Shown here piece after piece: positions 7,368-54,171 of a stretch of 64,000 bases of DNA. The stretch is from Rozella allomycis CSF55. Lineage: Eukaryota. The stretch covers positions 62,001 through 126,000 of the forward strand of contig KE561054.1 of the NCBI GenBank assembly GCA_000442015.1, read 5' to 3'. The translations under genes were made by a program, and so were the position numbers. A model generated the notes under the pieces. It had not been told where the DNA came from. It did not search any database and saw only the letters and a list, made by a program, of their open reading frames with translations. The first letter of the stretch is position 1. Every line of letters starts with the position of its first letter.

Positions 7368-9691
7368 TTAAATGGAATTACTTGGATTAACTTTGAAAAG
7401 ATAGTCCGCCTTTTAACCTTATTGTGTGTTTTTACCAAAAAATCTACAGGATCCTCCGGTCTTACCTTGCAAACCTCAATCAAGGCTGAAGTAAGGGTGG
7501 GCATAACATTTTTCATCAGATAATGCCTAAGAGGAACTGATTGTGCCTCCAAGACTTCTTTTTCTTGCCTTCTTATGTCTTCTAGCCTTGAATTCCATTC
7601 AGCAACTGCCTTTGATTGTCGTTCATTCTCTTCTTTTTCTAACTTTTCTTTGTGTTTCTTTGCTTCTTCTTCCATCTTAGACTATTTTGAAGGCTATAAA
7701 AGTGTTTACTTTTTCTTCTTCCTCTTTTCGCCTTATTTCAATAATTTCATCTAAAGTGGGCCCATAATTGTGAGCTTTTCCAATAAACTTTTTTAAGGCG
7801 TTAAAAATGTCAGTATCGGACCCATATTTACTCATTTCAACGTTCAACACTGCAATTTCTCTTTCATCGAAAAAGTTCAATAGAGTGGTTTCGTCTGTGT
7901 TATTAAGACGATATTTTTCAAGGCTTGAGTTCACATCTTTTTTCATAAAAAATAAAAATTTACGCTCTTCTAATGATGCTCCTTGATTCATAGCGTTCTT
8001 TTTGACATAGTCATCTGTGGCATCCAGATGAATGACATGTTCTGGGCAAGATAGTTTGTCATATTGGGGAACATTTGATTCTTCTTTATTCTCCTCTTCA
8101 TCGAATGTGCCTTGAAAAAGAAGGCTAGCTTCTTCATTTGTGGTTGGAAACCCATCAAGAACATACCCTTGATTCTTTACGGAAGGCGAATACAGCTTCT
8201 GTTTGATAAATTTTACTAAATATTCCGAGGGTATTTTCTGATCATTTTTAATTAATGCGTTTTTATATTCCTCCAGCTCCTCTCTAGCTGCATCCCTTTG
8301 ATCATCCGCACCATCAATACCATCTTTTGGAGGACTAGTTACTTTCTTTTCCTATTTTACATGACGATTAATAGTTACAAGATTCGATACATGTTCTTTG
8401 ACCACTTCATCGATGTTTAAATAATTAATTTTGTATTCAAGAGACAGCAACTTTGAAAATTTTGTTTTCCCGCTGCATGGCGGTCCGTGAATGAAAATCT
8501 TTACTGGCCATAAATTCCAATGTGTTTTATACTCTTTAATTAGTTGGCCAACATTTTCAACAAAACCATTCTAGTTAAACTATATTCACAAAAATACTTC
8601 AAATTTCCAATCTAAACTCATTTCCTTTATTACCCCAGCGTCAATTTTTAAATTCATCATCAACATATCATAGTCTTTTTGCTCGAAGTGCTTTTCTAAT
8701 AATGCTTCTTCTTTTGGTGTGACATTCACAGTCCCATTCCCCAAATTATCCGCTATTGCCATTTTATACTAATTAATTATTTTACTTGCAATATTTCAAG
8801 GAGAGTTATCTTTGAATCATCGACAGCAACCACGTAATGTGAAGCGGGTTTGGTTTCTATAACTTCCAAGACGATTTGCACCAAATCTTGAAGATATATC
8901 ATCGGTATGAAGTTTGTTCCTTCTCCATAGCACTTTAATGGTTCAACGGTATGCCAAGCTCTCTGCAATAACGAAATTTTATGGTTTAACCTTAAAAAAT
9001 GAATGGAGGATGCTATCTCCACCATGATATATTAAACCTGGCGCAATTACATATGTCTTAAGCGGTCCTTTCTTTCCACACCTTGAAATATTTTTCTCCA
9101 AATTCAAATGATCTTTGAAATTGGGATGTGCTTTGCGTTTTCTGAAATCTTCTTCAGCCAAAATTGCATCAACCTCTTCAGCGTCAATTTTAGTTTTGGC
9201 CCAAGTTATTACAGAAGAGATACAAATAAAGATTTTTGGTCGCTCTTTAAAAAGATCCTTGTTTTCATTGAGAACTGTTGATTTAACGAAAAAAGGTCTT
9301 ACAGTCGATTGCAAATTGACATTCATCAAGATTTTGCATGATGTCGTATACAATTACATCGGATTCCATGAGAACGTCTTTTAAACTAGCATCTGTGGGC
9401 TCCTATTTCTCAAAATCAATTCATTCATGGTACTTTGAGAATTTTAAAGTTTGTGGGTGGCATGAACTCCTTTCTTTCGCAAAAATCATCTTCGTTGTGC
9501 TTCTCCACAACTGTCCCAGTAATTTTGTATGGAACATTTCCATCAGCGACGTCCTTTTTTATGTCCTCTTCTTCATTTAAATTTACTTCTGTGTCTTCTT
9601 GTGGTTTTCTAGACCCGACAATCGTTTTTGATAGAAGCAACCCTATGGAAAATGCTACTGGATCGTTGATCCTGTTTATGAAAACAGACAT
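7368..9691 (-). CDS. AK7: Adenylate kinase 7 (ciliary), with NAD-binding-like N-domain and C-terminal Dpy-30 motif
   Basis: [35 protein letters not shown]-loop [54 protein letters not shown]. Confidence 0.95.
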
Positions 9692-12004: not shown

Positions 12005-12834
12005 ATGCAGCGATTTGCGTCACTTCTCCGACCGAACAACCCACCCCCAGGTTACCTTCCCTCAATTCATACTCTATCCCTGAACGAAGAAAGCTCTAAT
12101 AGTGCCCAAGTTTATACGTCTTCTTCCTCAACATCCCTTGATTCCTGGTTTCCGCCTGATACCGACAGCCCTATTTCAAACGAAGCCAAAAGACTAGATT
12201 CATGGTTAAATGAAGGCTGGAATATACCAGAAGTACCAGGAGCACATACTATTCGTGAACCAGAAAAAGTTGTTCCACTAAAGAAGCCCAGCCTTAATTC
12301 GTGGGAATCTATACCTTGCAATGACGGAAGTGACGCGCAGACCTATCCAATATCAATGAAGACTGTGGATCCTAAAAATGATGTGCCTAAAAGCACCGTT
12401 CACCCATCAACATCCTTTTGTTCCCAGAAAGTCTTGAATCGAATAAAACAAGACAGAGTTACCGTACAGCCTCGATTTCAGAATTCTTTTCACGCGCCAA
12501 CATCCACCAAATCCCAATGTTCTTGTGTAAAAGAAAGTAGCCTTGACGAAATGAACGATCCGATAGTTTACCTCCGATTTTTATTATCCCACAAAGAAAC
12601 AGGCGCCCTTATTGGTAAAAATGGTTCAAGAATAAACCAATATCGAAACAGGAAGGGAATTGTGCTATTAGATGTAAACAATGCTTCACACTCAGTGCCA
12701 TCATTAAAGGGCGAATATCGTGTAATGAAAATACAAGGCCGCCTTTCCGCGGTGAATGAAGTAAGCCACATTTACAATGATCATAGATTATCAAGGAAAT
12801 CATGTCGTTCAAGAATGTGAATGCTGAAGAGTAA
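12005..12834 (+). CDS. Low-complexity N-terminus plus single C-terminal KH RNA-binding domain
   Basis: LRFLLSHKETGALIGKNGSRINQYR (GxxG loop)...YRVMKIQG; one 26-nt intron near the 3' end. Confidence 0.75.
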
Positions 12835-13532: not shown

Positions 13533-13817
13533 CAAGACCCCTGTTAAGTCTGTTATCACAATTCATAGATTTTTGTAAGCTAATGTTTCAATAATAAAAT
13601 TTTAAACAGTAATTTAATATGATATTATGAAAAACCATACATAATATGATAAACAATACAATGTATTTTGGAATTTGGCATGAAAAGAACCAATTTTTTG
13701 TGAACAATAATTAAATCATTAATCTAATCATACGCTTAAGAATGAGTAGAAAGTTTCATGACAACTTCCACGTAAAGGCAAAAATAGGAGAGGAAAGCTT
13801 ATTTCACGAAAGGGTTA

Positions 13818-15662
13818 ATGGATAACGCAAAGTTTAATTTGGACCTGGAGAAACCAAAAAAGAAGATCATGGTTCAAGAGCATGACTTTGTTGATGGGAT
13901 AACACCAAAGGAAATTGAAATGACTCGGTTGGTTTTGCAATGGATGGAAGAACATGGATACAAGTACAACTATAGCACGTATATTTTAACAGAAATTCTA
14001 AACGTTTGTTGGAGCGAGAGTCTGGAATTGCAATGGAGCCAGACCTTGTATCAAAGTTCAAAAAGGCCCTTTTGAGTGGTGATTGGGATTGCGCTGGCAA
14101 TATATTGCCAAAGTTAATTAGACATGATTGTGATTATGAGGTAAAGTATGAAAAGAATAATTTAGTTGACCGCATTGTATCATTTAAAGAAACAGCAATT
14201 CATGGAAAAGATACAGGCCAAAGAAATGGGTGATGCAATTACTATCTTACAAAACGTTTTGACAAAGCTAATCCATGAACCGAAAGAATTCAATATCTTG
14301 GCAAAGTAACTAAATTGTGCATAAAATTAAAGATATATATTGCATTCAAATACTCTGCCAAAATGTTATGAATCTCGTTCAATACTATTGGACAAATTGA
14401 GTGGTATTGTAATTATTTGCGATTTACTCAAGAATTTATTTCGCCAACCTTGTTGATTCCAAAGGCTCGCCTGGAGAAATTGACGGCAAACGGTGTTGCT
14501 CACCAGCTTGAAAATTGTTATTATCATTTGTACGATGAGGGAAATACCATTTCGTTATTGTCTGAACATAACTGTGAAAAGTAAGTATTCCTATGATTAC
14601 TAGTAGGAGCGATTTCCCTAATAAAGCATTCCATAAGTTTAATGATCACAACGATGAAATTTGGTACGTTAGCTTTTCAAACCGCGGACAATATTTAGCA
14701 TCAGCGTCAAAGGATACAAAAGTCCATGTCTATAAATCACCAGTAAGCAAATCGACTATATTTATATTGTTTAAAACTTTATTTTGTTCTTTAAATGGCC
14801 ATTCAGACGCTGTCACGTTTTTAGCATGGAAGGATTGTGACACCCGTTTGTTAACTTGTTCAAATGACACGAGATTGATACTTTGGGATATTGAAGTAAA
14901 TCAAAGTTTAATTTATAAATCAGAAAAGTGGAGATATCGTTCATCAATATAGGGGCCACCAAGGGCCTGTTTTATGCTGCGCCTGGATGCCAGATGGTAC
15001 ATCATTTCTGTCATGTAGCCTTGATATGTCTATTATACTATGGGTATAGCAATAATCTAATGTATAAGAGAATATTGATGGATCTAAACACCACATTTGG
15101 ACTGGATTGAGAGTCACGGACGTTTGTGTTTTAAAAGATGGTTTGCGTGCATTGTTCACTGCGAACGAAACTAAAATAATTCTGGTCAATCTAGAAAATT
15201 TCGAGTTTGTTTGCACAATTCAAGAGTCTGATTCAATCTCATCATTAAAATTGAGTGGCGATTCTTCAAACTTTTTGGTTAATTTGGCTTCACAGGTAAA
15301 TACATTGTTATGGCTTAAAAAAGGAAATCCATCTTTGGAATATTGAGCAAAGGAAACTCGTGTCTACGTATATTGGGCACAAGCAAGGTAAGCTAATTTC
15401 GTACAATTTCTAGGTCGGTATGTAGTACGATCTTGCTTTGGTGGAAAACATGAAAACTTTATTTTAAGTGGAAGCGAAGGTAATTACTTAATTTCTCTTA
15501 GTTTACGATAACAAAGTATATGTTTGGAACAAGAAGCTGGTAAAGTGCATCGACGCTATGGAAGGTCATCAAAAGACAGTAAATTGTGTTGCATGGCATC
15601 CATACAAGCCGATATTTTGTTCAGCGAGTGATGACAAGACCATAATCATTTGGAGCAAATAA
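13818..15662 (+). CDS. GID7: WDR26/Gid7 (LisH-CTLH-WD40), GID E3 ligase subunit; start approximate
   Basis: RLVLQWMEEHGY...LERESG, GDWD, LIPKARLEKL, HNDEIWYVSFS, GHKQGRYVVRSCFGG...FILSGSE, GHQKTVNCVAWHP. Confidence 0.9.
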
Positions 15663-15831
15663 TAAACATTTATTGCTTTTATCGTTTCGTTTCTCATTTT
15701 AAAAGTTCGATAAATCTCAGGAATAAAGTAATACTTCAGTAAAAACGCCAAAGCTTTTTATATTCATCTCGCTGCCTGATCTTTTCTTTAAACAAGATTT
15801 CACTTTGGCTTTTTGGAATTTTCAATTTTTC

Positions 15832-17531
15832 ATGTCCCTATTAACGGACAAACAACAAGAAGAATTGTAATTTTCTTACTATAAATCTATAAAGGAATCT
15901 TTCTATTTTAGATTACCTACACACACGGGGCTTTTCAGTTAGCCTTCACCGATGATCAATGGCTTATTAGCCACGATTACGACAAATTAACACAATTGCT
16001 ATATATTTGCTACGTTTTCTTTACTATCATCCATAATCAGCACATGAGTATACCTAAAACAGTAGAACAAACAAACTTGACTGGAGAAGATATGGAACAA
16101 TTAGCACACATTCTTTTGCCCTGAAGTAATCAACCCATTACAATACTACCTAAAAATAGATAACACAAATCCCTAGGTATACAAATGACATTAGACAGCA
16201 AGCACGATGAGACGTTAAAACNAGAGTTTCACAACTTTAAGCAAGGAAACCGGACTGGATATAGAGAAAGATGGAAAGCAAAGATATTCAGGCCTTTTGG
16301 AGAAAAAATGGATGTCTATTCTAAGACTCCAACGAAAAGTACAATACCTCCTTTCACTTTATTAGATAACAGATTTGGAATCTAAAGTTACGCAATTGCA
16401 ATCCGAAGTAGAATCAGGGGGAATGAAAAAGACGAAAAATAAAGTCGACTTAATTCCCAAACCCCCAGAAAAAATAACGCTTAGTGGACATAGAAGCCCC
16501 GTCACATTTGTTACCTTCCATCCGCGATTTAGTTATTTGGCGTCATGCTCGGAAGATGCTACGATTAAAGTCTACGACTGGGAAACTGGCGAATTGGAGA
16601 AAACACTCAAAGGGCACACAAAGGCTGTGCATTGTATTGATTTTGACCCCAAAGGCGATCTCATCGGTAAAAATGTAGAATATTTGTTATGAAGCAAGCT
16701 GTTCTAGCGATTTGACAATAAAAATATGGGATATGAATGATGATTACAATTGTATTAAAACTCTTTATGGTCATGATCACAGCGTGTCATCAATTAAGTT
16801 TTATAGTGGTGGTGAAATGATTGCCAGTGCTTCCAGAGATAAAGCTATCAAATTATGGGAAATTTCAACGGGGTATTCTGTTTCATAAATTTTCTAAATA
16901 GATTTTGCGTAAAAACAATTCAGGGGCATTCTCAATGGATTCGATCATTAAGCATTTCCGAAGATAACAAATATTTAGCATCATGCTCCTCAGATCAAGT
17001 AGCTATTAATTTTTCGTTTGAAAGACAATTAAAATTTGGGACATTCTAACTGGGGAATGCAAAAACGAAGCAAAAGGACATGAACATGTAATTGAACAAG
17101 TTTGCTTTCTCCCTTCGACGAGTCACACTTTTATCAAATCTTTGTGTCAGCTTAAAGTAAAATTTTGAAAACTTGCAATAAAAGAAAATTGAAGGACCCC
17201 TGCTTGTTTCCGCATCAAGGGACAAGTCGATTAAATTATTTGATGGTCTTTCGGGGCAATGTCTTTATACATTTGTAATATTTTTGATTATCTGATATAG
17301 AATGGACACGATAATTGGGTGCGTGGAGTGGCTGTCCAGCCGATGGGAAAGTATCTCTTGTCTGTTTCCGATGACAAGTCTTTGAGGGTTTGGGATTTAG
17401 AGAGCGGAAAATGTGTTAAACATTTTGAAGCTCATTCCCATTTTGTGACATGTATTGCGATCCACCCATCTGCCCCCTTAGTGGCTACAGGTAGCGTCGA
17501 TCAAAAAGTTTGCGTATGGGAATCTCGATAA
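15832..17531 (+). CDS. PAC1: LIS1/Pac1/NudF dynein regulator, interrupted in the LisH exon by a ~283-bp RT-derived insert
   Basis: [68 protein letters not shown]. Confidence 0.95.
15939..16221 (+). mobile_element. Degenerate non-LTR retrotransposon (LINE) reverse-transcriptase fragment
   Basis: One frame with two stops: [28 protein letters not shown]...MSIPKT...[20 protein letters not shown]. This matches the (Y/F)ADD catalytic region through the (Y)KYLG motif. It ends at an N. Confidence 0.75.
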
Positions 17532-30912: not shown

Positions 30913-31967
30913 TTACATAAATCGTTTTCCCACTTCATAGGAACTTATCATGATCGCGCAAGCAGGTGCAACTTTCCCCACTCTCGCAGTGACACCCTTG
31001 AAAAGTCCGCGATATCCTTCCTCTTTAAAAATGTGACATAGCGCCTTTGTTACAGAATACCTAGCATTCTCTATGCTATCTAACAATAATGGGCAAAAAT
31101 CGTACTTTTAGTTTCGATTTGCCGCCTGGTCTTGGCTACGTCGAATGGTGTGGTTAAAACCGCCGCGATCATTCCAGACGTAGCACCCGCAATAAAAGAA
31201 ATTATCATTTCTTCCGTAACTTTCGTGTCAAGCTTTCGAATATAAAGCTTTTTTATTTTCGCTTTAGTATTCTCGTATGAAAGCCAGTAGATTGCTATAT
31301 ATCCAACAACATTTAGTTACCTGAAAAGGGAACATCTCGCCAAAGGGTTGGTGACAGTCCTTTCCATAGTGTACCCAACCCGTTTAAAGAAACAGATTGC
31401 TTTATATCTATGATTATACTTTTAATGGTTGTATTTTTCGTTGAGGCCTGGGCCCTGGTTCGAATCAATTCTATTGGGGATATAAATGAAGCAGCTATTG
31501 CTGGATAGTATAGATTATATATATTACTTCTTGCCAGAGCTCCCGAATAAAGAGGAGCCATTGGTGAATCCATTGTTACTTGAGAAAACCAGCCCTTTAA
31601 ATGCTCATATCCGACGTAATAAACAACAGTTGCAGGAACTGACATGACCAAAGTAGGGGAGAGTCCTCTCCATAAACTAGTAAATCCTTCTTGTTTCACT
31701 ATTTTCTTTATGCCGTCAAGAGTCCCTTTATAGCCATTGGTGGCCATAAGAGGTCTAACAGTATCATGGAAGTCATTAGCGAAAATAAAAGTAGATTTCT
31801 GTACAGAAATATTATTTGACACTTGAGCTTGAAGTCTGACTTTCACCACATCCATGGGAGTAACTATTTATGAGTCAAAACACAAATTTACCCAGCAAAG
31901 AAGTTAGAAATGCACCTATACCTGCTGAAATCGCCTTTTGTTTGTCTGATAATGTTTCTGAAGTCAT
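30913..31967 (-). CDS. MTM1: Mitochondrial carrier SLC25A39/40 (Mtm1)
   Basis: TSLLVTPMDVVKVRLQ, SLWRGLSPTLVMSVPATVVYYVGYE, LWRDVPFSAIYW, KVAPACAIMISSYE. Confidence 0.92.
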
Positions 31968-32031
31968 GCCTTTAACTTTTTTGAGCAAGGACAAAGCCTC
32001 ATTCTTAATTTCTGATCATAAGCCCTTTGAA

Positions 32032-33491
32032 ATGTTTTCTTGCCATATTTGCTCACGTTTAATTAGCGATAGATCCTCTTATTATACGTTTACGAAAACG
32101 CTTCTTTTAGGAGACAGATTCTTTAGATATTTTTGTGGAGACTGTCATTCAGGAGAAGAGATTTTATATAGATTAAAGCTATCATGGTAGCCATAAATAA
32201 TCTTTAAGTTAGGCTAGAAGCTGTTTTGTTGGCTCTGTGGAATTTGAATCGGCTCCAAGAATGTAACCTCTTTATCGCTGACCAAAAGCAAGCTATTCAT
32301 TTTATTTATATGCTAGGTACTATCATTCTGATCAAATATGTGAATTTATCGATAAAAATGAGCATAAATTTTGGGTTAATGGTTGTATATAATGCTTTTT
32401 GTCATCAAGGCAGCCAAGAATTCGTCAGTGATAAAGGACACTGTGGTGAAGACATTAGAAGAATTTGAGTTTAAATATTTTTTATCTAGTCGCACTACAT
32501 CATTAAAGCGTAATTATAGTAAGTTGTGCACAATAGACGGGTTATGGACTTTAGCAAATATGAATTGTCTGGACGAGATCCTCGCTGCCGAAAAAGATAC
32601 CGCTTTTGTTGTTTTACCAACTGGAGTTCTAGTTGATCCAATTAATTATAACGGGCAGGTATACGTGTATAACATGAATCATCGCAGAGCACAGTCGCTA
32701 AAAAGCTTAGCAGACGCGAAATTCTTAGCAAAACATACTCAAATTATGATTTCGATCGGCCTAATCCGTCAGGCAATGAGGTTCTGATGTGTCCACTAGC
32801 ATCTCATTCAGCTCCTCAAATTTTGTTTGAACCAAATGGAAAAACGATTTCGAATAAAAAGGTAGATATCTCAGCACGCAACAAAAGGGCTATTGTGTAG
32901 CCAAATCGACTCATGGGTTTGATTATGGCGATTTAGTTTATGAAGTCCATTTGCCTGTTGATTTTCAAGGGCACGTTAGAATAGGATGGTCGCATATTCT
33001 AGGGGATCCCCAAGCCGGGGTAGGATATGATGAATATGGATATTCAATCCGAGATAAAGATGGTCGTGCATTCCATGTTTCTAGATCCAAAGATTATGGC
33101 ACACCATTCGGTAACTACCTTATCGATGAAATATAGGTGCAGGGGACATTTTGGGTTGTGCAATAAAGATGCCGGAATTCGCCCCATCTGAGAAACAAAA
33201 TTATCTTAAAAGCTCCATAAAATCTGAATGGCCCCCTTTAAAGGAAGGAATATTCAACGTTGAAATGGATATTTTAGAAAACAGTCATATCGAATTCTTT
33301 CTAAATGGAAAAAGCCTTGGCTTAGCATTCGCACCAATATACAGAGGTATATGATAAAATTTTCTTGTTTTACAGGAAAGTATTATGCTGCTGCTTCTTT
33401 ATTTGGTGGAGCCAAAGTAGAAGTAAGGTTCAATAACCTGCAATATTCGTACCCTAATTACAAGACATTAGGCAGTGCTTTGCTTGAATAG
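32032..33491 (+). CDS. ASH2: Ash2/Bre2-like COMPASS subunit (PHD-like/WH + SPRY); start approximate
   Basis: LLGDRFFRYFCGDC, W..AVLLALWNL, ICEFIDKN, HSAPQ, KGYCVAKSTHG, GHVRIGWS, VGYDEYGYSIRD, IEFFLNGKSLGLAF. Confidence 0.85.
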
Positions 33492-33727
33492 TAATCAAGA
33501 CTTATTGAATGCTAAAATAAATATTAAAAATTTTGGATCTTTTTACATTTTTTTTTTGAAAGTGATAGCTGTATTTTTTGAAGTAATACAGTTATCGTAC
33601 AAGATGGATTTTGGCTTGGAAGAAGCTAAAATCATTTTCCCGAATATTTTTAAGAAGTACTATGTAAATTTTTAAATAAATTATTTTAAATATAAAAAAA
33701 AACATTTGGAAATATTCAAATATCAGA

Positions 33728-37266: not shown

Positions 37267-39464
37267 ATGGTTCAGACAACTGGTCAGTCTATCCGTGAGT
37301 CTGTGAATTCCAGTTTTGATATTTTGATATAAATGAAGTTTTGGTCAGTTTTAAGGTACAATTTGATCATGAATGCGTGAGGGCGTTTATTGAGTTTTGT
37401 ATTTCCTTTACTCCAAATTTCTCAATTGAACAAATGAATTATGGAACGACTGAACAGATCTTGAAAACAATTTTTTCATCGGATAACAAAAATATACCTC
37501 AAATTTGCCTAGATTTGACTACATTTTTGCAAAAAGCAGATTCTTTCCAGCTTTATAAACTTCTTCCAGTCCTATTAAGAGAATTTTTTGGCTCTCTGGA
37601 CAAGCCGTATCATATTTTCTATGTGTAACATAAGGGGATACATCAGTAGGATAAAAAATGAAGAAGAACGGATATCTTTGAAAGAATTTCTACGAGTAGA
37701 AGGCCCTTTATTTATCGCTTGCCTTAAGAATTTTTCAAACAGAAACTACCTATACCAAATTGATGGAGAAACATTTCCGGTAGCAATGCAAATATTCTAA
37801 TAATAGTTTCCATTAAAACATTATCTTATGAATCAAGAATTTGAGCTCGTTCCTCAATCCTTTTTGGCAAGGATGTCCAACACATTTATCATAGGAAAGT
37901 GCAACAATCTAGAGTTGGACATTATGGAGTTTTTTCTTTTTAATTTCCTAATATCTGTGAAACATATTCCTTATCTGGAAGTGGAATCTCTTAATTATTC
38001 CACAACGACTTCGGGGTTACGAAAATTGTCTCCTATGTCGTATTTTAAATCATCAAAGGTCTCAGTTCACAATTCAGATCTTATGGTGGAATTATTGGAA
38101 GAATATTTTGCCTATTTTATCGTTTGCGGAAATGAATGCCGTCTTAGCGTTTTGAATTCTCCCTTAGTTGTTGATATTTTTAGTGTGCATGTCCATCAAA
38201 TGATGGCTTCTGATATGATTCTTTTTTTGCTTGCCGCTGTTTCAGAATTTTGGCTTCATATTGAGGATGCCGCTCTTAGACCACCAGTATGATACGAAAT
38301 TAAACCTAATATAGAATAGGATAATTTTAAATAAGCGACTGATGCATTCTGTTAAACTGTTTATCCAGCATTTAATACAACTCGACTTTAATGACATGAT
38401 TCCGGGTTCGGCAACCTTAAAAGCGTAATTGTACCCATTTCGTGTTTATAGCTCTATTTTTACGCTTGTTCAAAGGTGCTTGTACCAATATTTTGTAGTA
38501 GCTTTTGAACATGCCGATGACGTTGAGTTTCCATTATTGACATGGGCCACTTATGCTTTTCCCGCCAACTTATCACAGGAGTATATCCATATGAACTTTG
38601 TATTTTACTCGGTTATTACACAAAGAATATTTGTTCATTTTATAAAACAATGCGAAAAACTGACATCGAGCAAAAAGAATCCTAATGATTTATTGTCTTT
38701 AATGGCCAAATTATTACATATTTTATCATCCAATGAAGCTGTTGTCGATTCGATTAGGATAAGTAAATTTCTTTTGTAAAGTGTAGCTTAGTGGAGGACT
38801 TTGCATGTCAACCTGGTAATGAAATTTCCAACCAAATATCCCAATTTGAAGGAAGTGCCTTTTACTACAAAAGATTTTTCGCGAATGAAGAATGCGAATT
38901 AGTAAAATTACTTTTGACGCATGTTTGGCACTTTAAGGTGCTTTTCAATGACGCGCAGACACAAATGAAGATTCAGGACATATTCAATCAAACTCAAATA
39001 ATTTTTCAAGTAATCACCCTATTTTCCAAATAATGTTATCTATTGAGGATATGGAAACAATAGAATTAAGCTCCTCGTTGATAAAAAAGTCAATTCCACT
39101 CTTTGCTGAATCCGAAAAGGGTTTTCTTACCCAGCAAGGAAAGAATCAATTGAAGCTCGGGGCTAGGAAATGTTCAAACAAAGACCTTGTTCCCCGTTAT
39201 AATGCCGAAAAACTTATAATTCAAACCCATGAAATTGCAATACTGGCTCAATTCCTCTATTCACTTTCCGAAGAAATCAATGGACGCGTAAAATCGAAAA
39301 TGTAACATAAATAGATTGAAAAATTATTAAAGTCGGTTGAATTTGTGGACTCTCGAGTCTTCAAAGTAAATTTACGACCCCTGGCTTCAATTAACTTTCA
39401 ACTACGAGCAGCCACAATAATTTTTGTTTCATGGATAGTTTTCAAAATAATAAATTTATTTTAA
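37267..39464 (+). CDS. SMPD4 (neutral sphingomyelinase 3)/NET13-like protein
   Basis: MEFFLFNF, SEFWL, TWATYAFP, NFVFYS, LTQQGKNQLKLGARKCS, THEIAILAQFLYSLS, VNLRPLAS, C-terminal TM. Confidence 0.75.
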
Positions 39465-53394: not shown

Positions 53395-54171
53395 TTAGCA
53401 GCAGCCTCCGCCCTGTGTTTGGACTTTGGCTCCTTGCCCTGACAAATTGACTTTGTTGGAAGCGCCAGTAGCCACTGAAGAAGTAGCCATTCTATGTTAC
53501 ATTGGCTTTATCCTTTACCGATCCTTAATTTGTTTTGCCATAGTTAAAAATGCTTGCTCCACATTGGTAGCATTTTTTGCCGAAGTTTCAAGGAATGGAA
53601 TAGAGAGTTGGTCAGCGAATTCCTATTTTAATAATCTCAATATTCAACCTTTGCAACGTTAAAATCAACAACTTTTTTAGATGTCAAGTCAGACTTATTT
53701 CCTACTAATAATTTGTTAACTCCTTCAGAGGCATAACGATCAATTTCTTGAAGCCAATTCTTGACATTGTTAAATGTGTCCTGATCCGTGACGTCGTACA
53801 CAACGATTATTCCATGTGCGCCACGATAATAACTAGAAGTTATTGTACGAAACCTTTCTTGGCCTGCAGTGTCCCACTTTGTTTTCAAATTATGAATAAA
53901 GTACTATTTGTAGTTTCACAGTCTTTCCTTCGAGCTCTATCGTGCGGATTTTCTATATTATAAGAGAATAAATATTACAAAATCAACACCGATAGTACTT
54001 ATAAAACTTTCGGTGTAAGTGTCATCCTAACATAAAACTACGTATTCATTAAATACCGCAAATCGAAGAAGCAAACACGATTTACCAACACCAGAGTCTC
54101 CGATTAAAAGAAGTTTAAAAAGGTAATCGCTAGATATTTAATATTTCTTCTATTTACTATTCAGGATTCAT
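53395..54171 (-). CDS. YPT1: Rab1/Ypt1 GTPase (7 exons)
   Basis: [55 protein letters not shown]-terminal GGGCC. Confidence 0.98.

What the first reader, a model, noticed from the sequence alone, without database searches (positions are those of the whole stretch)
15480..15507. Candidate GT...CG intron in GID7
Seen: GTAATTACTTAATTTCTCTTAGTTTACG (28 nt). Splicing after ACG gives SGSE|DNKVYVWN, the WD40 SGSED motif. The TAG at 22 nt is in frame but inserts VY into that motif and is shorter than other introns here. Inference: only the terminal G may be obligatory.
Basis: partly seen in the sequence, partly recalled or inferred. Interest (0 to 1): 0.7.

Follow-up and report, generated by a model that had tools for sequence, protein, structure and literature searches.

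The report
Rozella intron lacking its AG acceptor
The last intron of a conserved WD40 gene in the parasitic fungus Rozella has the normal 28-base length but ends in CG instead of AG, and without RNA data it is open whether the cell really splices there or at a too-close TAG six bases upstream.

Summary
Window 15480-15507 is the 28-nt string quoted, in the last intron of a WDR26/GID7 orthologue of Rozella allomycis. Two independent DNA data sets hold the same ACG, so it is not an assembly error. Cutting after ACG gives SGSE|DNKVYVW with no gap against 42 of 45 orthologues. The in-frame TAG (22 nt) adds VY; the in-frame AAG (37 nt) removes DNK.

Introns here are very uniform. With a flat length prior, 90 of 128 predicted introns are 26-29 nt, the mode sits at the minimum (26), and I verified none under 25 or over 31 nt. 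AGs ending at positions 21-25 are bypassed. A second case exists: an AK7 gene (8760-8785, minus) has a 26-nt GT..TG intron that matches 4 of 4 homologues, against a 17-nt TAG reading that adds YKM.

Against the CG reading:
- No RNA data were available.
- Both odd introns have a viable in-frame upstream TAG, against 4 of 131 normal introns (p about 0.002). That is what cryptic-TAG use after loss of the AG predicts.
- "Only the terminal G is obligatory" is not general, because about 131 introns use AG and bypass 14 in-range CG/TG.

My odds: CG used 0.40, TAG 0.33, AAG 0.05, not productively spliced 0.12, other 0.10.

The parts
13818..15664 (+). WDR26/GID7 orthologue: 11 exons, about 523 aa in the CG reading.
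   Evidence: Gene model built by coordinates. Near-identical to GenBank R. allomycis CSF55 proteins P0003 and P0042. Pfam LisH_WDR26 and WD40.
13964..13992 (+). Intron 1, 29 nt, GTA..CAG.
14141..14165 (+). Intron 2, 25 nt, GTA..TAG. It is the shortest intron in the gene.
   Evidence: The public model P0003 and my flat-prior run use a longer cut here.
14306..14332 (+). Intron 3, 27 nt.
14404..14432 (+). Intron 4, 29 nt.
14581..14606 (+). Intron 5, 26 nt, with tandem in-frame TAGs ending at positions 23 and 26. The family favours the 26-nt cut.
   Evidence: Family HMM 563.9 bits (26 nt) against 560.2 bits (23 nt). All 23 orthologues displayed are gap-free for the 26-nt reading.
14896..14923 (+). 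Intron 6, 28 nt.
15044..15070 (+). Intron 7, 27 nt. An out-of-frame AAG ending at position 25 is bypassed for the GAG at 27.
   Evidence: Frame requirement. The variant 15068 G>C in runs X1 and X3 removes the upstream AAG and leaves CAG.
15296..15323 (+). Intron 8, 28 nt.
15388..15413 (+). Intron 9, 26 nt.
15480..15507 (+). The finding: intron 10 in the 28-nt GT..CG reading.
15499..15501 (+). In-frame TAG. It is the acceptor of the rival 22-nt reading, which adds VY, and is the one used by the public models RKP22026.1 and RKP22028.1.
15514..15516 (+). Next downstream AAG, in frame. It is the acceptor of the 37-nt reading, which deletes DNK.
15508..15664 (+). Last exon, coding for the last WD40 repeat, with the stop codon at 15662-15664.
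   Evidence: Pfam WD40 44.7 bits on 15510-15661 alone.
8760..8785 (-). Second case: a 26-nt GT..TG intron in an adenylate kinase 7 gene. An in-frame TAG ending at intron position 17 is the rival acceptor and adds YKM.
   Evidence: 4 of 4 homologues have a 3-column gap exactly at YKM. HMM 144.5 bits against 136.7 bits. The M of YKM in two GenBank models fixes the ATG at the intron end.
39010..39035 (+). Unresolved third candidate: a 26-nt GT..TG reading, against a 38-nt GT..AG reading (to 39047), in an SMPD4-like gene.
   Evidence: The Pfam match does not reach the junction.

Best explanation
This is an old 28-nt spliceosomal intron of the Rozella allomycis WDR26/GID7 gene. It sits inside the invariant Asp codon of the last WD40 repeat, and its acceptor dinucleotide is CG instead of AG.

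In this genome introns carry almost no internal signal. There is GTA at the 5' end, a weak A/T preference just before the end, and AG at the 3' end. Lengths are held to about 25-31 nt, with the mode at the lower limit.

My reading is that the 3' cut is placed mainly by distance from the 5' splice site or branch. An AG is taken when one lies in that range, and AGs ending before about position 25 are out of reach. Intron 10 has no AG in range; its only G in positions 25-31 is G28. I infer that exon ligation happens after that G, probably inefficiently, and gives the family-typical SGSE|DNKVYVW.

Shown: the sequence, the length regime, the bypass of early AGs, the gapless fit to the family, and a second gene with the same anatomy (GT..TG, 26 nt). 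Inferred, not shown: that ligation at CG occurs at all, and its share of transcripts.
For: 1. The CG is real. X1 record 6 has 0 differences and X2 record 13 differs only at 15717-15739.

2. Fit to the family. 42 of 45 orthologue representatives have no residue between the SGSE-type motif and D. The 3 exceptions are two apparent read-throughs of an intron at this same site and one truncated entry. HMM scores are 563.9 bits (CG), 556.7 (TAG) and 548.2 (AAG).

3. Length regime.
- With a flat prior of 12-90 nt, 90 of 128 predicted introns are 26-29 nt (26: 34, 27: 16, 28: 20, 29: 20). Only 5 are under 25 nt. Two of those are the two odd cases, and the other three have canonical alternatives or look spurious.
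- With a flat prior of 15-70 nt, 77 of 100 are 26-29 nt.
- Every out-of-range prediction I checked by homology or by reading fell back into range or vanished. LIS1 is 27 nt, not 34. The 49-nt intron predicted in the gene at 31870-33675 is read-through coding sequence.

4. Early AGs are bypassed.
- In at least 8 of 131 canonical introns, an AG ending at positions 21-25 would cause a premature stop within 19 codons, including 3 at position 22.
- In intron 5 of this same gene an in-frame TAG at 23 loses to the TAG at 26 by homology.

5. Independent second case. The AK7 intron 8760-8785 (minus) is GT..TG and 26 nt. 4 of 4 homologues are gapless for it. Its only in-frame AG alternative is a 17-nt intron, and the next AG (33 nt) is out of frame (sequence, read by me).
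Against: - No RNA evidence of any kind. No listed run is on record as RNA, and the four runs laid were DNA contigs.
- Both odd introns have a viable in-frame upstream TAG, whereas only 4 of 131 canonical introns have a viable in-frame upstream AG. The chance that both fall in that subset is 15/8778 = 0.0017. The cryptic-TAG rival predicts this and the CG reading does not.
- AG is otherwise universal here. About 131 canonical introns end in AG, and 14 CG/TG at positions 25 or later are passed over when an AG follows. That count comes from AG-only models.
- The sequence just upstream of the CG scores no better than that of the TAG: -1.31 against -0.74 on my acceptor matrix.
- From general knowledge of the spliceosome (recalled, no call): the A at position -2 is read during exon ligation, and non-AG sites are normally poor substrates.
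- Both public annotations use the TAG. I do not know what evidence they were built on, so this is weak.
Confidence: 0.4

Rival explanations
1. Cryptic acceptor. The ancestral 28-nt intron ended in AG and a point change made it CG. Splicing now uses the in-frame TAG at 15499-15501, a 22-nt intron. The last 6 intron bases have become coding and the protein carries a real VY insertion (SGSEVYDNK). In the same way, AK7 would use its 17-nt TAG and carry YKM.
For: - It explains why both odd introns have a viable in-frame upstream TAG, against 4 of 131 canonical introns (p about 0.002). Loss of the AG would be tolerated only where such a back-up exists.
- It explains why each insertion sits exactly at the intron's 3' edge.
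- It needs no non-AG chemistry.
- The public models RKP22026.1, RKP22028.1, EPZ33485.1 and RKP22033.1 are built this way.
- Both TAGs have T at -3, the commonest base there (53% of canonical introns).
Against: - 22 and 17 nt lie 3-4 and 8-9 nt below a very sharp lower limit. Counts are 26 nt: 34-42 introns, 25 nt: 1-2, and no other believable case below that. The mode sits at the minimum, which is the signature of a hard functional limit.
- AGs ending at positions 21-25 are bypassed elsewhere, including an in-frame one in this same gene.
- AGs at positions 12-20 are as common inside introns as base composition predicts, so they appear invisible to the machinery.
- 0 of 42 informative orthologues tolerate any insertion at this turn.
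- Both TAGs are followed by T, which is depleted at +1 of real acceptors (matrix).
Confidence: 0.33
2. Next AG downstream. The TAG is too close to be used and the CG is not used either, so the first reachable AG, the AAG at 15514-15516, is the acceptor. That gives a 37-nt intron and SGSE|VYVW without DNK.
For: - It is in frame.
- It needs only canonical GT..AG chemistry.
- The tail ...GATAACAAAG resembles canonical tails here that end ...TAAC(N)AAG (listing).
Against: - It deletes the Asp that is present in 42 of 45 orthologues. The HMM score is 15.7 bits below the CG reading and 8.5 bits below the TAG reading.
- The skipped 9 bases encode D-N-K in frame, exactly as in several orthologues.
- I verified no intron longer than 31 nt in the window.
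- The same rule would frameshift AK7, whose next AG is at 33 nt.
Confidence: 0.05
3. Not productively spliced. The acceptor mutation cripples the intron, transcripts retain it and end at the TAA at 15509-15511, and the protein lacks its last WD40 repeat. The gene is decaying or makes only traces of full-length product by several minor routes.
For: - Non-AG acceptors are normally very poor (recalled, no call).
- My gene finder prefers read-through to the stop at 15511.
- A parasite kept in culture may fix mildly harmful changes (inference).
Against: - The last exon is a perfectly open, family-typical WD40 repeat (Pfam WD40 44.7 bits alone).
- The intron region is the same in DNA data sets that differ elsewhere in the 6-kb stretch laid, at the sites listed, so the state is not a private, recent lesion.
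- All nine other introns and all exons are intact.
- It does not explain the AK7 parallel.
Confidence: 0.12

Closest known systems
Canonical tiny GTA..AG introns of the same genome (about 131 in this window)
   Same: Same 5' end (GTA; A at +3 in 95%), same length class (28 nt), same AT-rich signal-poor interior, and same role of joining two conserved coding exons in frame.
   Different: The last two bases are CG, not AG. No AG lies in positions 25-31.
Cryptic or tandem 3' splice sites (NAGNAG-type choice; activation of a nearby in-frame AG after loss of the normal one)
   Same: Two or three in-frame candidate acceptors lie within 15 nt. An in-frame upstream TAG exists in both odd introns. Intron 5 of this gene is a true tandem-TAG case.
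   Different: Here the upstream AG would make an intron shorter than any other believable one in the window, and the site that fits the family best is not an AG.
[quoted passage not shown]
   Same: The abstract reports many rare dinucleotide permutations beside GC-AG and AT-AC, and a generally more flexible 3' than 5' splice site in fungi, animals and plants.
   Different: The words GT-CG, GT-TG and GT-GG do not occur in that main text. Rozella is not discussed in any paper I found. Here the odd site is tied to a strict length regime.
U12-type (minor spliceosome) introns, whose 3' end is set largely by distance from the branch site and tolerates several terminal dinucleotides (recalled, no call)
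   Same: The idea that distance, not the AG, places the 3' cut.
   Different: The 5' end GTAATTAC and the interior lack the long conserved U12 5' splice-site and branch-site motifs (sequence; the motifs are recalled). So this is not a member, only a functional analogy.
Other tiny-intron systems: Paramecium, Stentor, chlorarachniophyte nucleomorphs, microsporidia (recalled, no call). A note that R. allomycis has introns of about 30 nt lacking conserved motifs is in PMC6349667 (passages read).
   Same: A very narrow length distribution close to a minimum, and weak internal signals.
   Different: As far as I recall, those systems are described as GT..AG. A non-AG end at the modal length has not, to my knowledge, been reported for them.

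Membership tests
U2-type GT-AG spliceosomal intron | GT (here GTA) at the 5' end | tested here: met
   GTAATT at 15480-15485. The donor score of 3.37 is within the canonical range.
U2-type GT-AG spliceosomal intron | AG at the 3' end | tested here: not met
   15506-15507 is CG in the window and in DNA contigs of runs X1 and X2. AG is met only for the 22-nt and 37-nt readings.
U2-type GT-AG spliceosomal intron | Length within the organism's range | tested here: met
   28 nt is modal: 20 of 128 with a flat prior and 25 of 131 with the trained prior. 22 and 37 nt are outside 25-31.
U2-type GT-AG spliceosomal intron | Removal from mRNA at these exact borders | not testable with these tools
   No RNA holder was listed, and the four runs laid were DNA contigs.
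GC-AG or AT-AC non-canonical classes | GC or AT at the 5' end with a matching 3' end | tested here: not met
   The 5' end is GT. A 28-nt GC..TAG alternative starting 6 nt upstream would replace the conserved S-E with I-Y and has G at +3, where 95% of introns have A (my reading; frequencies).
U12-type intron | Long conserved 5' splice-site and branch-site motifs | tested here: not met
   Neither motif (recalled consensus) is present in GTAATTACTTAATTTCTCTTAGTTTACG. Whether Rozella has a minor spliceosome was not tested.
WDR26/GID7 protein family (host gene) | LisH(WDR26)-CTLH N-terminal part plus a C-terminal WD40 propeller | tested here: met
   On P0003, Pfam LisH_WDR26 scores 32.7 bits (cut-off 27) and WD40 80.9 bits (cut-off 27). 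45 orthologue representatives align over nearly the full length. No separate Pfam hit for CTLH was listed.
Cryptic-acceptor (exonised intron tail) event | Insertion relative to homologues lying exactly at the 3' edge of an intron, with an in-frame upstream AG | tested here: met
   VY in GID7 and YKM in AK7 both sit at the edge. Both upstream TAGs are in frame and stop-free. Whether they are used is not testable here.

The most novel reading that the evidence does not exclude
Rozella's spliceosome places the 3' cut with a ruler of about 26-29 nt from the 5' splice site. It will ligate after a G in that range even when the preceding base is C or T. A small class of GT..YG introns (2-3 of about 135 in this window) is therefore functional and is systematically mis-annotated as ultra-short introns with spurious 2-3 residue insertions.
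Probability: 0.35. Interest if true: 0.7.

Novelty: new variant of a known kind. Interest (0 to 1): 0.5.

Why it matters
If the CG (and in AK7 the TG) is really used, Rozella would be a natural system in which 3' splice-site choice is set by distance rather than by the AG. Rozella is a sister lineage of the microsporidia, whose splicing machinery is described as reduced (recalled). That makes a long-standing question, how the second catalytic step picks its site, directly testable with one RNA-seq experiment.

Whichever reading is right, three practical points stand:
- The window shows an extremely uniform intron regime (mode 26 nt, at the minimum). I found it described nowhere in four literature searches.
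- Public Rozella gene models at these loci are wrong or doubtful. GID7 is truncated to 158 aa in one annotation and loses a WD40 stretch in the other.
- Gene finders that demand AG and allow any length will insert false residues at such sites.

Tried and rejected
- RNA evidence. No RNA holder was listed by the look-up of sequencing runs. The four runs laid (X1, X2, X3, X8) were all DNA contigs and showed no splice joints, only two structural joints.
- Whole genome. None is held for this window.
- Related species. The metagenome scan with P0003 gave one locus, L001, covering only the LisH part on a 2.5-kb contig. It is useless for the last intron. The protein searches found no relative closer than about 40-48% identity other than Rozella itself.
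- Blind search for more non-AG introns.
  - The gene finder with any 3' dinucleotide allowed returned the AK7 case plus false fusions of neighbouring genes.
  - An ORF-rescue scan was too noisy. The last base of non-AG candidates showed no G excess, and control start dinucleotides gave similar numbers.
- Branch-site motif. No conserved motif was found, only weak A/T preferences. TTAA starts cluster weakly at position 20. TTAAT occurs upstream of both TAGs but also in 16 of 131 canonical introns at scattered places. I treat it as post hoc.
- Third candidate, 39010-39035 versus 39010-39047. The Pfam mit_SMPDase match (E 0.035) starts 16 residues after the junction, so this is undecided.
- My first reading of the LIS1 intron as 34 nt bypassing a TAG at 27 was wrong. 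Alignments to solved LIS1 chains show the 27-nt TAG intron.
- A 49-nt intron predicted at 33423-33471 is read-through coding sequence.
- Earlier findings of this scan: nothing on this genome or this sequence.
- One search was an empty script.

Full report
**What the window is.**
The DNA is AT-rich (about 35% G+C) and eukaryotic, with the standard genetic code and very many tiny introns. My model of the gene at 13818-15664 is near-identical to GenBank proteins of Rozella allomycis CSF55. P0042 (EPZ33489.1, 158 aa) agrees with the window at the residues where the other annotation differs. P0003 and P0189 (RKP22026.1, RKP22028.1) differ at a few residues. So the window is R. allomycis or something extremely close. 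No whole genome is held for it.

**The observation.**
- Window 15480-15507 reads exactly as quoted and is 28 nt long.
- It lies between exon 15414-15479 (...FILSGSE plus the first base of a codon) and the last exon.
- Three cuts keep the frame: after the TAG at 15501 (22 nt, SGSEVYDNKVYVW), after the ACG at 15507 (28 nt, SGSEDNKVYVW) and after the AAG at 15516 (37 nt, SGSEVYVW).
- The other nine introns are 25-29 nt GTA..AG.
- The CG is not an assembly error. A contig of run X1 over 15427-15716 has no difference from the window. One of X2 over 15427-15938 differs only at 15717, 15728 and 15739. X3 probably agrees, but 10 rows of that table were not shown.

**The host gene and the family test.**
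- P0003 scores above the Pfam cut-offs for LisH_WDR26 and WD40.
- From a search of 1.84 billion representatives with P0003, I kept 46 hits of 400-900 aa. Of those, 45 cover both ends of my model.
- In their alignment, 42 of 45 have the SGSE-type motif followed at once by Asp.
- Two entries (P0048, P0050) read SGSEGK..., which looks like read-through of an intron at the same codon. One (P0103) is truncated.
- An HMM of the 45, with Rozella excluded, scores the CG reading 563.9 bits, the TAG reading 556.7 and the AAG reading 548.2.
- Homology therefore prefers the CG cut by 7 and 16 bits. It cannot show which cut is actually made.

**The intron regime.**
- I wrote a small self-trained gene finder. 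It is imperfect: it fuses some neighbouring genes and truncated GID7 itself.
- With a flat length prior of 12-90 nt, 90 of 128 predicted introns are 26-29 nt and the mode is 26. One is 25 nt and five are shorter (12, 17, 20, 22, 23).
- With a flat prior of 15-70 nt, 77 of 100 are 26-29 nt.
- Of the five short ones, 22 is the finding and 17 is the AK7 case below. The 20-nt one has a 26-nt canonical alternative. The 12- and 23-nt ones look spurious.
- Long outliers that I checked dissolved. A 49-nt prediction in GID7 is really 25 nt. LIS1 is 27 nt, not 34: the exon ending at 16338 aligns to solved LIS1 chains up to residue 64, and the exon read from 16366 aligns from residue 66 at its second residue. 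A 49-nt prediction at 33423 is plain coding sequence running to a stop.
- I verified no intron under 25 or over 31 nt.
- The 131 canonical introns of 25-31 nt carry little information beyond GTA (A at +3 in 95%), A at -4 (60%), T at -3 (53%) and AG. No branch motif stands out.

**Early AGs are bypassed.**
- Among those 131 introns, 25 internal AGs end at position 17 or later.
- At least 8 introns have an AG ending at 21-25 whose use would give a stop within 19 codons. Three of these are at position 22.
- In intron 7 of GID7, the AAG at 25 is out of frame, and a natural variant in X1 and X3 destroys it.
- Intron 5 of GID7 has two in-frame TAGs, at 23 and 26. The family prefers 26 (563.9 against 560.2 bits, and all 23 orthologues displayed are gap-free).
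- A TAG at 22 is therefore the kind of AG this genome normally ignores.

**A second, independent case.**
- On the minus strand, the adenylate kinase 7 gene has GTAAAATAATTAATTAGTATAAAATG (8785 to 8760), 26 nt and ending in TG.
- Both GenBank models splice at the in-frame TAG (a 17-nt intron) and read [12 protein letters not shown]. The M fixes the ATG in two annotations.
- In an alignment with all four homologues found (a chytrid, a lungfish, a rotifer and a JGI protein), there is a 3-column gap exactly at YKM.
- An HMM of the four scores the TG reading 144.5 bits against 136.7.
- The next AG (33 nt) is out of frame. The only in-frame choices are therefore a 17-nt intron or the non-AG cut.

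**What speaks against the CG reading.**
- There is no RNA evidence.
- Both odd introns have a viable in-frame upstream TAG, while only 4 of 131 canonical introns have a viable in-frame upstream AG. Drawing both from that subset has probability 15/8778 = 0.0017.
- The natural explanation for that coincidence is the rival: an AG was lost, and this was tolerated only where an in-frame back-up AG could take over, turning the intron tail into VY or YKM.
- I found no conserved gene in the window broken by an intron that lacks every canonical in-frame alternative. This also fits the rival.
- AG is clearly preferred over a bare G. Canonical introns pass over 6 CG and 8 TG at positions 25-27, with the caveat that those models were built to end in AG.

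**Weighing.**
- The CG reading must accept a 0.002 coincidence and unusual chemistry.
- The TAG reading must accept introns 3-4 and 8-9 nt below a cliff whose mode sits at the minimum, plus an insertion at a turn where 0 of 42 orthologues have one.
- I cannot separate the two with sequence alone.
- My odds are: CG used 0.40, TAG 0.33, AAG 0.05, not productively spliced 0.12, other or mixed 0.10.

**Novelty.**
- Four full-text searches found nothing on Rozella splice-site usage or intron length.
- One paper remarks in passing on introns of about 30 nt without conserved motifs in an R. allomycis ribosomal protein gene (PMC6349667, passages read).
- A survey reports rare non-canonical combinations and a more flexible 3' site in general (PMC7072748, abstract and outline read).
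- Supplementary files of these papers were not opened. They might list Rozella splice sites.

Noticed in passing
window 8760-8785 (-): The adenylate kinase 7 gene has a 26-nt GT..TG intron reading that matches 4 of 4 homologues without a gap. Public models use a 17-nt TAG intron and carry an extra YKM.
   Followed up: yes
window 39010-39047 (+): An SMPD4-like gene has an intron with no AG in positions 25-31. It is either a 38-nt GT..GAG intron or a 26-nt GT..ATG intron (difference LSIE, in frame), and there is no upstream AG at all. Pfam coverage stops short of the junction.
   Followed up: partly
window 15939-16222 (+): A 284-nt stretch ending in an N interrupts the LIS1 (PAC1) reading frame. 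DNA contigs of runs X1 and X2 join 15938 directly to 16223. Leaving the stretch out gives a continuous LIS1 N-terminus that aligns to solved LIS1 chains. It is likely an assembly artefact or an insertion private to one haplotype.
   Followed up: partly
window 13818-15664 (+): The public gene models of GID7 are poor. EPZ33489.1 stops after 158 aa. RKP22026.1 and RKP22028.1 splice out 14750-14923, which is a WD40 stretch that is open in frame. RKP22028.1 is also fused to the KH-domain protein that lies upstream in this window (12005-12834).
   Followed up: partly
window 15068 (+): The variant G>C in runs X1 and X3 removes the out-of-frame AAG inside intron 7 and leaves the frame-keeping acceptor as CAG. 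This fits the view that the AG at position 25 is not the functional site.
   Followed up: no
whole window: Intron lengths are extraordinarily uniform (26-29 nt, mode at the minimum of 26), with almost no internal signal. Several tails end in TAAC followed directly by AG, as if branch site and acceptor were nearly fused.
   Followed up: partly
window 13800/14748 and 15427 (+): Contigs of X1 and X2 show a joint from 13800 to 14748 (skips 947) and loose ends at 15427 and 16200-16221. This hints at structural differences or repeats between assemblies around GID7 and LIS1.
   Followed up: no
window 53395-54170 (-): In a small GTPase gene (Rab-like by my reading, no call) the gene finder missed three short 5' exons. 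Read by eye, all six introns are canonical (28, 30, 26, 28, 26, 27 nt).
   Followed up: partly
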